From the NCBI GenBank assembly GCA_964016885.1, contig OZ024765.1, forward strand, positions 4,836,001 to 4,900,000: a DNA stretch of 64,000 bases, in the 5' to 3' direction. Below are positions 19,504 to 47,835 of the stretch, piece by piece. The translations under genes and the position numbers were made by a program. Position 1 is the stretch's first letter. Every line of letters starts with the position of its first letter. The stretch is from Eledone cirrhosa (lineage: Eukaryota). The notes under the pieces are model-generated. The model was not told the origin of the DNA, searched no databases, and saw only the letters and a program-made list of their open reading frames with translations.

Positions 19504-19569
19504 TATTTTATTATACATATTTCAGAGGTACTGAGCTATTTCAACAGTTCGTCCTCATCAGATAAAATA
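19504..19569 (-). ncRNA. Hammerhead motif, family R (element ~19460-19735)
   Basis: tattttat-CTGATGA-gga...tct-GAAA-tatgta-TA-ataaaata; perfect 8-bp stem I. Confidence 0.72.
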
Positions 19570-19744
19570 AGTTGATGCTTGACATACCTTGACTATGTTG
19601 GTGGTTATAATTTAATATTTTATAATTTAATATTCTGAAGTAATATTAATAACTCCAGAAAACCCTTGAGTGCTTCTAATCTATTGTGAAACTTTACTCA
19701 TTGAGTAATTCATTGAACCTTGTTAAACTTTTAATTATATATAT

Positions 19745-19919
19745 CTATTCTATTCTAAGGCGGGTAAAATTCCCGAGATCCATGGACGAGTTCTCTCCAG
19801 CGGTCTCCGTCCCTCATTATCGCTGCCATGTCCTGCGTCTCCAACAGACTAGTGTCTGTCCTTAGGGCATCAACATACGTTAACCTTGGTCTTCCTCTTC
19901 TAGTGTGTCCATGTTGGGA
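19745..19919 (-). mobile_element. Second RTE-like LINE family 3' end with (AATAG)n tail
   Basis: QHGHTRRGRPRLTYVDALRTDT...MRDGDRWRELVHGSREFYPP*. Confidence 0.8.
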
Positions 19920-19971
19920 GCCCCTACATTATATATATATATATATATATATATATATATATATATATATG

Positions 19972-20185
19972 TAAAAGGTAAACAGAAATAACAACACAAT
20001 CGGTACAGTATATAGAAGGGATATATTAGGTTAACGCTTGATAGAGCAGGAAGAGGGTCTTGATGTTTCAGACGCTAGTCCTTCATCAGAAGAAAGAAAG
20101 AGAAATAAGATAGATTGAGGAGAGAGGGATGGAATTGGAAAAAATGTCTTTAGATAAAAATAATAGGTCCATTCATGTTAACATC
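19972..20185 (-). mobile_element. Second copy of the ~4540-4735 element, hammerhead motif at 20058-20093
   Basis: Minus strand reads tctt-CTGATGA-aggactagcgtct-GAAA-ca-TC-aaga; the two-copy consensus is GAAACGTC. Confidence 0.75.
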
Positions 20186-20989
20186 TCTTGCAAACTCTCT
20201 CTCTCTCTCTCTCTCTCTCTATCTATCTCACTCTCTCTATCTCTCTCCCTCTCTCTCTCTATCTCTCTCCCTCCCTCTCTCTCTCTATCTCTCTCCCTCT
20301 CTCTCTCTCTCTATCTCTCTCCCTCTCTCTCTCTCTATCTCTCTCCCTCTCTCTCTCTCTCTATCTCTCTCCCTCTCTCTCTCTATCTCTCTCTATCTCT
20401 CTCTCTCTCTCTCTCTCTCTATATATATATATATATAATGTAATATCTCTCTCACTCTACCTATCCACTCACACACATTTCCTCCACTCACTGGAACCAC
20501 TCCACACTCCACTCACAGGAATCACTCTACTCCATTCACTGGAACCACTCTACACTCCACTCCACACTCCACTCACACACCCTTCCTCCACTCACTGGAA
20601 CCACTACACACTCCACTCCACTCACTGGAACCACTCCACACTCCACTCACACACCCTTCCTCCACTCACTGCAGCTGCACTTCTTAGAATTTGACACTGA
20701 GTGTGACCAAAATGACACTGGATCTCTTCCACTCTCTCCCTCCCCTTCTCCCCTCCTCTTCCCTCCCCTCACGCTCGCCATTTATCTTCCTCCCCCTTCC
20801 TCTTCTCTCCTCCTCACCATCTCCTCTTCCTTGCCCCATCCTTCTCGCCCTCCTCGCTCCCTTCTCTTCTCTCCATCCTTCTCGCCCTCCTCCTATCCCT
20901 CCCGCCTCTCCATCTCCCCCCCTCCCACCCCCTTCAGTCTAATTGCTGATCAATGTCGACGCCATCAGTCACTGGCGTCTGTGGCTGTT

Positions 20990-22062
20990 CGTAACAGCAA
21001 CCACTACCACCACCACACCACCACTACCACTACTCTACCACCACCACTACACCACCACCACTACACCACCACCACTACCACCACTACACCACCACCACAC
21101 CAGCACCACCACTACCACTACACCGCCACCACCACCACTACACCACCACCACCACCACTACACCACTACCACCACTACACCACCACTACTCTACCACCAC
21201 CACTACACCACCACCACACCAGCACCACCACTACACCACTACCACCACTACACCACTACCACCACTACTACCATCATCATCACCACCATTTACAGCAGTA
21301 CTACTATCGCTACCACCACCACTCTAACTGATAGCACTACTACCACCACCACCACCACCACCATCACTACACTCACCACCTCTACTACTACAACAACCAC
21401 CACTACAACCACAGATATAACCACTACTACTACTACCACCACCACCACAGATATCACCACTAATACTACTACTACTACTACTACCATTACAGCTATCATC
21501 ACTATCACTACTACCACCACTACAGCTACCACTACTACTACAGCTATCACCACTACAACAGCTTTCACTACTACTACCACTACTACTACACCTATCACCA
21601 CTACAACTACTACTACCACTATCGCTATCACCACCACTACAGCTACCACCACCACTACTACTACTACACCTACCACTACTACTACCACTATCACTACAGC
21701 TATCACTACTACTACTTCAGCTATCACCACTACACCTATCAATACTACTACTACACCTACCACTACTATCACCACTACCACTATCACCACCACCACTACT
21801 ACTACCACTACAACCACTGCTACAGCTACCACTACAGCTATCACCACTACTACTACCATTATCACTACTACCACCACCACCACTACTATCACCACTACCA
21901 CTACTACTACAGCTACCACCACTACTACAGCTGCCACTACTACTACAGCTATCACCACTACTACTACCACCACCACCACTACTATCACTACTACCACCAC
22001 TACCACTACAGCTACCACCACTACTACTACTACAGCTATCACCACTACTACTACTACCACAT
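20990..22062. repeat. (ACC/ACT)n trinucleotide block
   Basis: Source of the poly-Thr/Val ORFs. Confidence 0.95.
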
Positions 22063-44671: not shown

Positions 44672-45098
44672 TTACGTTCTGAGTTCAAATCCCACCGAGG
44701 TTAACTTTGCCTTTCATCCTTACGGGGTCGATAAAATAAAGTACCAGTAATGTTCTGAGGTCAATTTAATCGACTTTCGCCTCCTCCCAAATTACTGGCC
44801 TTGTGCCTATATTAGAAATCATTATATACACTCTGTTCTAGCATTGAGTGCTGACTTTGGTATCCTCACCAGTTTTCGACAGATTTACTTAACCTTCTGC
44901 GCCTATGTGTGTATATATATATAATTGTTTCTACATTTGGCACAAGACAAGCAATTACGTGTATCACTGGTACTTTATTTTATCGACCCCGTAAGGATGA
45001 AAGGCAAAGTTGACCTCGGCGGGATTTGAACTCAGAATGGCAAGGGCCGTAACTCTGTGTCAAAGCATGGTGTCCGACCCTCTACCGATACTGCCAAT
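44672..45098. mobile_element. Two SINE B copies tail-to-tail (44672-44823 +, 44922-45098 -)
   Basis: Conserved body on opposite strands. Confidence 0.82.
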
Positions 45099-45144
45099 AA
45101 TAATACAAGAACGATTAGTTAAGCCTTCATTATGTTTATTGATT

Positions 45145-45229
45145 GCTGACGCGTGTTTCGCGATTGATCAGCTCAAGGTTGGATCTGTATCGATCTGACC
45201 CAACTCTGGACTCAATAGCTCGTCGGACC
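45145..45229 (-). ncRNA. Hammerhead-like motif with long stem II
   Basis: ggt-CCGACGA-gctattga...tcaatcgc-GAAA-cacgcg-TC-agc (GUC cleavage triplet; stem I weak). Lies between inverted aataatacaagaacg/cgttcttgtattatt ends. Confidence 0.5.
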
Positions 45230-45563
45230 TCTGGTATGGTAATGACAGAATCCGTAATAAAGACATAACCAACCGTTCTTGTATTATTATATTACACAGT
45301 CTCGCTCTACACCTCACCACTGACGTGAACCTAAACATTGAGTGCTCACCTGAGTGAACCTACAGTAACTTCATGTTACACTCCCTGTATATATATATAT
45401 ATAGGTATCTGTTAACTCAAATTAAAATTAACACCCTAAACAATGGTAGTCTTGGTGCTATGATATAAAGGAGCCGGTCCATCTTGTACGATGTCCATGC
45501 GGGTGCCACATTAAAATGTACCCTGTATACTCTGTAAGGTGTTAGCACTGGAATCACTTCATT

Positions 45564-46825
45564 CCTTGGTCTGATCTGATGATCAGCTCCTTTCTTCTGC
45601 CAGGAGTTGTGACCAACAGATAATATCAGTAATGGAAAGACCAATGGAAACATTGTTTCCTTGGTCTGATCTGATGATCAGCTCCTTTCTTCTGCCAGGA
45701 GTTGTGACTGACAGATAGTATCAGTAATGGAAAGACCAATGGAGACATTGTTTCCTTGGTCTGATCTGATGATCAGCTCCTTTCTTCTGCCAGGAGTTGT
45801 GACTGACAGATAGTATCAGTAATGGAAAGACCAATGGAAACATTGTTTCCTTGGTCTTATCTGATGATCAGTTCCTTTCTTCTGCCAGGAGTTGTGACTG
45901 ACAGATAGTATCAGTAATGGAAAGACCAATGGAAACATTGTTTCCTTGGTCTGATCTGATGATCAGCTCCTTTCTTCTGCCAGGAGTTGTGACTGACAAA
46001 TAGTATCAGTAATGGAAAGACCAATGGAGACATTGTTTCTTTAGTCTGATCTGATGATCAGCTCCTTTCTTCTGCCAGGAGTTGTGACTGACAGATAGTA
46101 TCAGTAATAGAAAGACCAATGGAAACATTGTTTCTTTAGTCTGATCTGATGATCAGCTCCTTTCTTCTGCCAGGAGTTGTGACTGACAGATAGTATCAGT
46201 AATAGAAAGACCAATGGAAACATTGTTTCCTTGGTCTGATCTGATGATCAGCTCCTTTCTTCTGCCAGGAGTTGTGACTGACAGATAGTATCAGTAATAG
46301 AAAGACCAATGGAAACATTGTTTCTTTAGTCTGATCTGATGATCAGCTCCTTTCTTCTGCCAGGAGTTGTGACTGACAGATAGTATCAGTAATAGAAAGA
46401 CCAATGGAAACATTGTTTCCTTGGTCTGATCTGATGATCAGCTCCTTTCTTCTGCCAGGAGTTGTGACTGACAGATAGTATCAGTAATAGAAAGACCAAT
46501 GGAAACATTGTTTCTTTAGTCTGATCTGATGATCAGCTCCTTTCTTCTGCCAGGAGTTGTGACTGACAGATAGTATCAGTAATAGAAAGACCAATGGAAA
46601 CATTGTTTCCTTGGTCTGATCTGATGATCAGCTCCTTTCTTCTGCCAGGAGTTGTGACTGACAGATAGTATCAGTAATGGAAAGACCATTGGAAACACTG
46701 TTTCCATGGTCTGATTTGATAGTCAATTCCTTTCTTCTGCCAAGGGTTGTGACACACACATAGTATCAGTAATGGAAAGACCAATTGAAACAGTTTCCTT
46801 GGTCTGATCTGATGACTGGCTCTTT
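45564..46825. repeat. 95-bp tandem array (~13 copies) derived from the SINE D 3' region
   Basis: ccttggtctgatc at 45564, 45659, 45754...; unit shares gacagatagtat..gaaagaccaatggaaaca..tttccttggtc with 10120-10170. Confidence 0.93.
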
Positions 46826-47757
46826 CTGTTAGTAATAATTGAAATGTTTAAGAAGCTATCACTAGGAAACTATAATTAGCTTCTTCTAGCAGAAATCTAA
46901 ACATGCAACAACATAATTTATTCTGAAGCAACAAAATAGTTTTGTTGTACTTCTTAGTTTTTTTTTTTGTTTGTTTGTTTGTTTTTTTAAAATAAATTCC
47001 AAAAATGGTAAAAAAAAAAAAAAATCTCGTTAGAAACATTCTACACTTCAATTATGTTTGGTAAATTAGAGCCGTTTCCAGGCAGTAATTAACTCCCAGT
47101 GAATGTTACTGGCTCTACTGTTGACTGCTAATGGACTGTTAATTACAAAAAACAATATATATATATATATATATATATATACACACACATATATAAAGGG
47201 TAAAAACTAGGAGAATTTGGAGAACATTTTTGTTGTTTGAGCCGGTGATGATGATGGTGGTGTTGGTGGTGGTGATGGTAGTGGTGATGGTAGTGTTGGT
47301 GGTGATGGTAGTGGTGTGATGGTGGTGGTGATGATGGCAGTAGTGGTAGTGATGGTGATGGTAGTGTTGGTGGTGGTGGTGATGGTGGTCTTGGTGATGG
47401 TGATGGTAGTGTTGGTGGTGGTGGTAATGGTAGTGGTGTGATGGTGGTGGTGATGATGGCAGTAGTGGTAGTGATGGTGATGGTAGTGTTGGTGGTGGTG
47501 ATGTTAGTGTTGGTGGTGGTGGTGATGGTAGTGGTGTGGTGGTGGTGGTGGTAATGATCATGATGGTGGTGATGGTGTTGATGGTGATTGGAGACTGTTG
47601 TTCTGTGTGAAATACTCAAGTTATTTCAGTTAAACATTAGATATTACAGAATTAGAGGCTCTCTCTCTCTCTCTATATATATATATATATATATATATAT
47701 ATATATATAATAATAATAATAATAAACGAAACATATATACTTTATATCATCTCTATT

Positions 47758-47835
47758 TATTTCATTATATATATTTCGAAGATGTAAAGTTTTATGTCTA
47801 ACATAAAGAAAAACATGTCCTCGTCAGATAAAATA
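47758..47835 (-). ncRNA. Hammerhead motif, family R'
   Basis: tattttat-CTGACGA-ggacatg...catcttc-GAAA-tatata-TA-atgaaata; homologue of 28978-29055. Confidence 0.75.

What the first reader, a model, noticed from the sequence alone, without database searches (positions are those of the whole stretch)
19504..47835. Covariation across four family R/R' hammerheads
The four minus-strand motifs keep an AT-rich stem I in which one pair changes while staying paired: U-A (19504), U-G (47758), C-G (28978). The free N7 core position varies (CUGAUGA, CUGACGA, CUGAGGA) while the invariant bases stay fixed. Stem II differs completely between R and R' yet closes with gga.../...tct or ttc/ttt. This pattern indicates selection on RNA structure rather than a chance match.
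Basis: seen in the sequence. Interest (0 to 1): 0.75.

Follow-up and report, generated by a model that had tools for sequence, protein, structure and literature searches.

The report
Hammerheads ending Hydra-type Penelope retroelements
These four motifs are copies of a small, likely self-cutting RNA that sits at the end of a known class of jumping gene and occurs in tens of thousands of places in this genome; its paired shape was likely kept by selection while the jumping gene spread, whereas inserted copies like these appear to decay freely.

Summary
The four minus-strand motifs are real minimal type I hammerheads. They lie in the 3' pseudo-LTR of 5'-truncated Penelope-like retroelements (PLEs) of the Hydra clade. 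Longer genomic copies of R and R' lead into an ORF with DKT, a CxCX5C linker and GIY-YIG, and a TERT-like predicted fold. One full element has two direct hammerhead repeats 3.84 kb apart. A tight pattern finds 65,182 motifs (control 10). The real covariation is in stem II (7 of 7 pairs change on both sides, around a kept C·C mismatch) and in the stem III palindrome. Its two central neighbours read U-A, U-G or C-G, and C·A in only 0.35%, as dimer pairing predicts. Changes shared between copies keep pairs (62 vs 11). Single-copy changes hit the core as often as the flanks, so selection likely acted on master elements, not on these copies. Hydra-clade hammerheads are published, including one octopus family. 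This scan reported other Penelope-linked hammerheads in this genome, not family R. Cleavage is untested.

The parts
19504..19569 (-). Family R minimal type I hammerhead. C3 at 19561, G12 at 19523, predicted cut 3' of A17 (19512); 8-bp stem I, stem II with C·C mismatch, 8-nt palindromic stem III
19450..19614 (-). 5'-truncated 3' pLTR arm of a Hydra-clade PLE (family R), ending about 60 nt after the cut site in (TA)n
   Evidence: 96-97% identical to the pLTR arms of ORF-bearing loci L221 and L209
19619..19748 (+). Inverted second arm carrying the ~100-nt tail (the element's 5' leader), ending in (TA)n
   Evidence: 88% identical to L221 5266-5402; same layout in most of 30 loci
29701..29768 (-). 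Family R (sub-variant) hammerhead. C3 at 29760, predicted cut 3' of 29709; two mismatches in stem I
29651..29856 (-). 5'-truncated pLTR arm holding the 29701 hammerhead
   Evidence: 82% identical to L221 pLTR
29872..29940 (+). Inverted tail arm of the same insertion, ending in (TA)n (limits approximate)
   Evidence: read by eye
28978..29055 (-). Family R' hammerhead. C3 at 29047, predicted cut 3' of 28986; carries the rare C-G at 2.3-1.3
28931..29143 (-). 5'-truncated 3' end of a Hydra-clade PLE (family R'), ending in an AT-rich tract
   Evidence: 88% identical to the 3' end of ORF-bearing locus L092
47758..47835 (-). Family R' hammerhead. C3 at 47827, predicted cut 3' of 47766; G10.1-C11.1
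47715..47930 (-). 5'-truncated 3' end of a Hydra-clade PLE (family R') with a short duplication at its 5' junction, ending in (TAT)n(TA)n
   Evidence: 90% identical to L092 3' end

Best explanation
The four motifs are minimal type I hammerhead sequences in the 3' pseudo-LTR of 5'-truncated Hydra-clade Penelope-like retroelements, and they are likely relics of a ribozyme that is predicted to cut the element's RNA as a dimer. Shown: the motif, its place 1-2 kb downstream of an RT/GIY-YIG ORF in longer copies, two direct copies around a full ORF, insertion into (TA)n, two-armed insertions with two fixed ends, and pair-keeping shared changes against unbiased single-copy changes. Inferred: in a full element the 5' and 3' pLTR hammerheads pair through their 8-nt palindromes and cut out a unit-length RNA of about 3.8 kb. 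The element's RT then copies a circular or still-tandem template from a nicked (TA)n site, which is why genomic 3' ends run about 52 or about 150 nt past the cut site into the element's own 5' leader. Only lineages with a working fold kept spreading, so structure was selected between master elements. Solo truncated copies such as these four then mutate neutrally and are likely silent unless a second copy is on the same transcript.
For: ORF link. Walking upstream from R' reached RT, linker and endonuclease pieces. R-type hammerheads lie downstream of the endonuclease in L209, L221, L229, L233, L235-L238. L217 has two direct 236-nt repeats (97% identical) with hammerheads at 1328 and 5172 around the ORF, and the sequence after its 5' hammerhead runs into the ORF start. 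A 750-aa single-frame ORF (L229) folds with mean pLDDT 74 and its six best PDB matches are telomerase RTs (E 5e-10 to 2e-8). Its motifs match the Hydra clade definition and the published alignment by eye. Structure. In 14 family consensuses, 216 of 224 stem I/II cells pair, against 43-49% for slid registers. In 23 aligned copies, 97.7% of cells pair, 7 of 7 stem II pairs change on both sides, and 0 of 500 shuffles reach this. Internal branches keep 62 pairs and break 11; terminal branches keep 58 and break 108 (Fisher 4e-13; stem II alone 30 vs 5, counted). Dimer. The adjacent central stem III bases read U-A 103, U-G 71, C-G 14 and other 4 of 192; C·A is 230 of 65,182 genome-wide. Closing stem III in a monomer costs 2.8-3.5 kcal/mol, while the two-strand duplex gives -2.2 to -3.2. 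Neutral decay. In R' copies picked by upstream sequence only, 13 of 22 keep the full core, and rare changes are 9 of 240 core cells vs 112 of 2675 other cells (p 0.89). Ends. Of 44 R arms, 16 end 52 nt after the cut (24 at 50-56) and 7 tail-bearing arms end at 147-152 nt.
Against: No cleavage or RNA data. In my tree-based G-test with a shuffled-substitution null, only 1 of the 18 testable stem pairs was significant (p3-q3, E 0.027); six stem II pairs ranked 1, 4, 6, 9, 11 and 18 of 861, mixed with unpaired hits. The short tree has homoplasy (13 repeated changes at 2.2), which inflates event counts. Many copies were selected for an intact core and stem I likeness, so only stem II and the dyad are free of that bias. 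Three of the four copies have G·U at 10.1-11.1 and most families have A-U, not the G-C that PLE hammerheads usually keep. The minimum-energy fold of both R copies is not the hammerhead. Most pair-keeping changes are A/G opposite U, which editing could also produce. Pfam did not recognise the RT or the endonuclease, and the endonuclease fold was not searched on its own. Clade placement is by motifs, not by a tree with named references.
Confidence: 0.88

Rival explanations
1. The apparent covariation comes from mutation, not selection. A-to-I editing of the paired RNA before reverse transcription, plus transition bias, turns A-U into G-U and mimics pair-keeping.
For: Most shared stem variants in R' are A/G opposite U (4 of 5 in one set, 4 of 6 in the other), while shared A>G is rare outside stems (1 of 14 and 0 of 17). 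Earlier notes of this scan report editing scars in Penelope copies of this genome (not checked here).
Against: Editing cannot supply the second step (U to C only opposite G). Family consensuses hold G-C or C-G at every stem II pair and almost never C·A (1 such cell in 14 families). C·A at the dyad is 0.35% genome-wide. Editing itself would still require the helix. It may well contribute the first step.
Confidence: 0.07
2. R and R' are short non-autonomous hammerhead repeats (retrozyme- or SINE-like) with their own small RNA, mobilised in trans by PLE enzymes, not truncated ends of full PLEs.
For: The window copies are only 165-290 nt long, and many R' copies start at the same 5' position. Retrozymes derived from pLTRs are reported.
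Against: 5' junctions vary and lengths form a continuum up to ORF-bearing copies that carry the same pLTR at 94-97% identity. None of the four is in a tandem array. The common R' start may reflect microhomology with (TA)n and my query choice.
Confidence: 0.08
3. These four copies are kept by the host as working ribozymes, for example cutting one long minus-strand transcript.
For: All four are on one strand with intact cores, two lie 713 nt apart, and their palindromes could cross-pair (-3.2 kcal/mol).
Against: Four on one strand has p = 1/8. An intact core is common (25 of 27 R copies, 24 of 30 and 13 of 22 R' copies). One copy already has two stem I mismatches. The core decays at the flank rate in the unbiased set.
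Confidence: 0.04

Closest known systems
Hydra clade of C-terminal EN+ Penelope-like elements, incl. Hydra-1_Obim (Craig et al. 2021, PMC8557442; passages, section 11, supplement part 2 and search passages seen)
   Same: DKT motif, CxCX5C linker, C-terminal GIY-YIG without the CxxC of CCHH, (TA)n targets, hammerhead near the 3' end, inverted 5'-truncated second arm and one-sided tail.
   Different: Unit about 3.84 kb (published ones generally under 3 kb), tail about 100 nt (30-40 nt described for Naiads). The hammerhead differs from the listed Hydra-1_Obim motif and from the other listed Hydra-clade motifs: 8-bp AU-rich stem I, longer stem II with a kept C·C mismatch, and an 8-nt palindrome with no central loop base (compared by eye). 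The paper speaks of a small number of families; here there are at least 14 families and 65,182 motifs.
Minimal PLE hammerheads (Cervera and de la Pena 2014, PMC4209133; parts 1-2 of 4 read). Lunse et al. dimer study seen only through a review passage (PMC6765202)
   Same: Type I topology, intact 11-nt core, palindromic unstable stem III, long stem II, mostly solo truncated copies, some in opposite-strand pairs, many covarying families per genome.
   Different: No clear extra base between A9 and 10.1; 10.1-11.1 is A-U or G-U more often than G-C. Copy number is far above the ~2,000-9,000 quoted for Schistosoma, Latimeria and Xenopus.
Metazoan non-LTR retrozymes (PMC7229834, passages; bioRxiv 10.64898/2026.07.22.740005, part 1 of 5 and passages)
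   Same: Type I hammerheads, PLE association, proposed circular intermediate.
   Different: R and R' are not tandem 150-450 bp units and are continuous with a coding element.

Membership tests
Minimal type I hammerhead (PLE type) | Core CUGANGA, GAAA and UH in order | tested here: met
   All four copies
Minimal type I hammerhead (PLE type) | Stems I and II closing on the core, supported by covariation | tested here: met
   stem II 7 of 7 pairs change on both sides; stem I only 2 of 8 and one window copy has two mismatches
Minimal type I hammerhead (PLE type) | Short palindromic stem III | tested here: met
   8-nt palindrome in all 14 family consensuses
Minimal type I hammerhead (PLE type) | Usual (not strictly defining) G10.1-C11.1 pair and extra base after A9 | tested here: not met
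   G-C in 1 of 4 window copies and 2 of 14 families; A-U 9, G-U 3; best register has no bulge
Minimal type I hammerhead (PLE type) | Self-cleavage, as a dimer | not testable with these tools
   Only energy estimates
Hydra-clade PLE | Single ORF with TERT-like RT and C-terminal GIY-YIG | tested here: met
   L229 750 aa in one frame; TERT best fold matches; GIY-YIG read by motif only
Hydra-clade PLE | DKG changed to DKT | tested here: met
   SDKT in L217, L208, L216 and L229; SDTS in L210; region absent from the other four loci scanned
Hydra-clade PLE | CxCX5C linker | tested here: met
   L217, L208, L216, L209, L214 and L221; third C lost in L229
Hydra-clade PLE | CCHH motif absent from the endonuclease | tested here: met
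   One C and no CxxC between the VY and YIG strands in the ORFs; judged by eye
Hydra-clade PLE | Insertion into (TA)n and hammerhead in the pLTR | tested here: met
Hydra-clade PLE | Placement in the clade on an RT tree with named references | not tested
   Published sequences were seen only as text and were not loaded into a tool
Non-LTR retrozyme | Tandem non-coding units of 150-450 bp, each with a hammerhead | tested here: not met
   Solo or two-armed copies continuous with an ORF

The most novel reading that the evidence does not exclude
This genome carries a 65,000-copy hammerhead superfamily whose families have swapped out stem II but kept one cross-compatible stem III palindrome and a C·C mismatch three pairs from the core. 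Solo copies from different families on one long pre-mRNA (such as the R and R' copies 713 nt apart here) could then activate each other as heterodimers and cut host transcripts, and the C·C would mark an undescribed tertiary contact.
Probability: 0.12. Interest if true: 0.7.

Novelty: new member of a known kind. Interest (0 to 1): 0.3.

Why it matters
Hammerheads in Penelope pseudo-LTRs, including the Hydra clade and one octopus family, are published, so the finding itself is expected. What is useful is the scale and the natural variant series. About one motif per 46 kb gives sequence evidence for dimer pairing (covariation between adjacent bases that cannot pair in one strand), separates selection on master elements from decay of copies, and shows fixed 3' ends beyond the cut site. 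These make the open question of what the hammerhead does in PLE transposition easier to test.

Tried and rejected
Chance match: rejected. Neptune clade: my first recalled guess, dropped after reading the Hydra definition. Rfam: no hammerhead among the 150 of 442 window matches shown, and none at gathering score in 3 loci, so Rfam neither supports nor refutes. Pfam found nothing for the ORF or two full-length homologues; the PDB sequence search was uninformative. Sequencing runs: no RNA holder listed, which says nothing about expression. Laying DNA runs on 28940-29960 could not confirm the C at 29050 because other copies cross-map. Intact ORF: among the 150 best endonuclease hits of each of two searches, the longest frames were 799 aa (L228, which aligned to a homologue only from residue 421 and did not pass my ORF filter) and 750 aa (L229, start in another frame). 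No fully intact copy was seen, but about 51,000 candidates were not scored. The 95-bp tandem at 45562-46815 holds CTGATGA but lacks stem I and UH, so it was rejected as a hammerhead (one end copy, +46809, passed the descriptor and is doubtful). Rows dropped: 3 of 196 unique motifs with 3 core mismatches and 1 unrelated family; 3 of 30 and 6 of 30 loci too short or duplicated. Literature searches: 'hammerhead ribozyme'+'octopus', 'Penelope'+'Neptune'+'hammerhead'+'pLTR', 'Penelope'/'Hydra clade'/'cephalopod', 'hammerhead'+'stem II'+'C-C mismatch' (0 papers), 'hammerhead'+'cephalopod'. None described this family. An Octopus vulgaris repeat annotation has no 'hammerhead' or 'ribozyme' in its main text. 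Lunse et al. was not held, and I did not see Repbase or the 2014 supplements; any of these may already list the motif.
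Full report
Observation. The four motifs are at 19504-19569, 29701-29768 (family R), 28978-29055 and 47758-47835 (family R'), all on the minus strand. Each has stem I, CUGANGA, stem II, GAAA, six bases, UA and the stem I return. A strict descriptor gave 4 window hits (three of these four and one doubtful) and 0 in 40 shuffles. Two statements need correction: stem II of R and R' shares its proximal part, including a C·C mismatch at the fourth position, and the 29701 copy has two stem I mismatches.

Abundance. The window lies in a 3.0-Gb animal assembly, octopus-like by inference from its size and repeats. DNA searches gave 979 (R') and 1,816 (R) first-look candidates, 40 scored each. 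A tight pattern for the shared core and stem III matched 65,182 places against 10 for the control. Of the first 100 listed, 36 lie in 18 back-to-back inverted pairs (counted by eye), so insertions are fewer than motifs. R and R' are minor families within this set: 111 exact R' matches. Among 193 distinct copies I found 14 families with two or more members.

What they belong to. Copies end in (TA)n, have variable 5' junctions and often an inverted second arm with a ~100-nt tail. Walking upstream from R' reached RT, linker and GIY-YIG pieces in L092. R hammerheads lie 1.3-2 kb downstream of the endonuclease in L209, L221, L229, L233 and L235-L238. The 19504 copy is 96-97% identical to those ends, and its inverted arm matches their tail. 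L217 is a full element: two direct 236-nt repeats, 97% identical, with hammerheads 3,844 nt apart around a frameshifted ORF. The sequence after its 5' hammerhead runs straight into the ORF start, so the 3' 'tail' is the element's own 5' leader. A 750-aa frame (L229) folded with 19 homologues gave mean pLDDT 74 and telomerase RTs as the six best PDB matches. DKT, the CxCX5C linker, no CxxC in the endonuclease, (TA)n targets and a hammerhead are the published marks of the Hydra clade; the motifs match the published alignment by eye. That paper lists Hydra-1_Obim from Octopus bimaculoides with a different hammerhead.

Is there covariation? Over 192 copies it reads U-A 112, U-G 70, C-G 3 and unpaired 7, and ranks 115 of 861. 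In the first 100 of 111 exact R' matches, C is opposite G twice and A once. Elsewhere, yes. Family consensuses pair in 216 of 224 cells vs 43-49% when slid. In a MAFFT alignment of 23 copies all 7 stem II pairs change on both sides and 0 of 500 shuffles reach the score, though that control ignores relatedness. My tree-aware G-test passed only p3-q3 (E 0.027), so formal significance is thin. Changes on internal branches keep pairs 62 times and break 11; terminal changes keep 58 and break 108 (homoplasy inflates counts, and stem I and the core were partly selected for by my filters). The C·C mismatch is in 13 of 14 family consensuses and 162 of 192 copies.

Where selection acted. In R' copies chosen only by upstream sequence, 13 of 22 keep the whole core and rare changes hit core and flanks alike (3.8% vs 4.2%, p 0.89). 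No shared variant falls in the core in any of three sets. Median divergence from the family majority is 4-7%. So the fold was likely selected among replicating elements, and inserted copies drift.

Mechanism. Stem III is an 8-nt palindrome. Its two central neighbours cannot pair within one strand, yet read U-A 103, U-G 71, C-G 14 and other 4 of 192. C·A, which is the same DNA change as U-G seen from the other strand, is only 230 of 65,182. Monomer closure costs about 3 kcal/mol and the two-strand duplex is weakly favourable. This fits the dimer model published for PLE hammerheads. Genomic 3' ends lie about 52 nt (24 of 44 R arms at 50-56) or about 150 nt (7 tail arms) past the cut site. The template therefore held sequence beyond the cut, as a circle or an uncut tandem would; that step is inferred. 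Against activity: G·U or A-U at 10.1-11.1, and a competing lowest-energy fold in both R copies. Editing may supply A-to-G first steps but cannot explain G-C pairs.

Prior work and verdict. Papers seen: PMC4209133 (parts 1-2 of 4), Craig et al. 2021 (passages, section 11, supplement part 2 and search passages), bioRxiv 10.64898/2026.07.22.740005 (part 1 of 5, passages), PMC13282606, PMC6765202 and PMC7229834 (passages). The axolotl has up to 120,000 retrozyme copies, so the count here is high but not a record; its far larger genome is recalled. Earlier notes of this scan describe other Penelope-linked hammerheads and two-armed insertions in this genome, and a sequence look-up for R found none. 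Verdict: real, correctly sensed, and a new, very abundant member of a known kind. Interest 0.3.

Noticed in passing
window +4616 and -20089 (repeat 4553-4733 / 19972-20149): A second mini-hammerhead family with 4-bp stems, an extra base after A9 and a short palindrome; two copies, 92% identical.
   Followed up: partly
window +7775 and -56398; inverted pair in L211: A third mini-hammerhead family with a 6-bp stem II; the 56398 copy is degenerate in stem III.
   Followed up: partly
window 56000-56130: Inverted pair with CTGATGA, a weak stem II, GAAA and UA, but no adjacent stem I; 5 more matches in fetched loci. May be a rearranged hammerhead like those in earlier scan notes; not tested.
   Followed up: no
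window +29237 (29190-29290): Another repeated CTGATGA element between the R and R' copies, also in 4 places of fetched loci; not a standard hammerhead by my descriptor.
   Followed up: no
window 32592-33290 (+): Mariner-type transposase fragment, 232 aa, Pfam HTH_48 above cut-off.
   Followed up: partly
window 37471-41585, 45562-46815, 42581-44044, 31212-32179: Tandem arrays of 108, 95, 46 and 72 bp; the 95-bp unit holds CTGATGA and hairpins but no valid hammerhead.
   Followed up: partly
window 52132-52320 (-): Short peptide resembling the N-terminal RT region of Penelope/Poseidon elements (recalled resemblance; no Pfam hit).
   Followed up: no
window 29301-29490 and 18885-19206: Two highly repeated SINE-like elements beside the hammerhead copies; a weak tRNA match lies in the latter region.
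   Followed up: no
L004, L010, L013, L032, L036, L209, L216: Hammerhead-bearing ends of different families often lie within a few hundred bases of each other, as at 29047/29760; likely shared (TA)n targeting.
   Followed up: no
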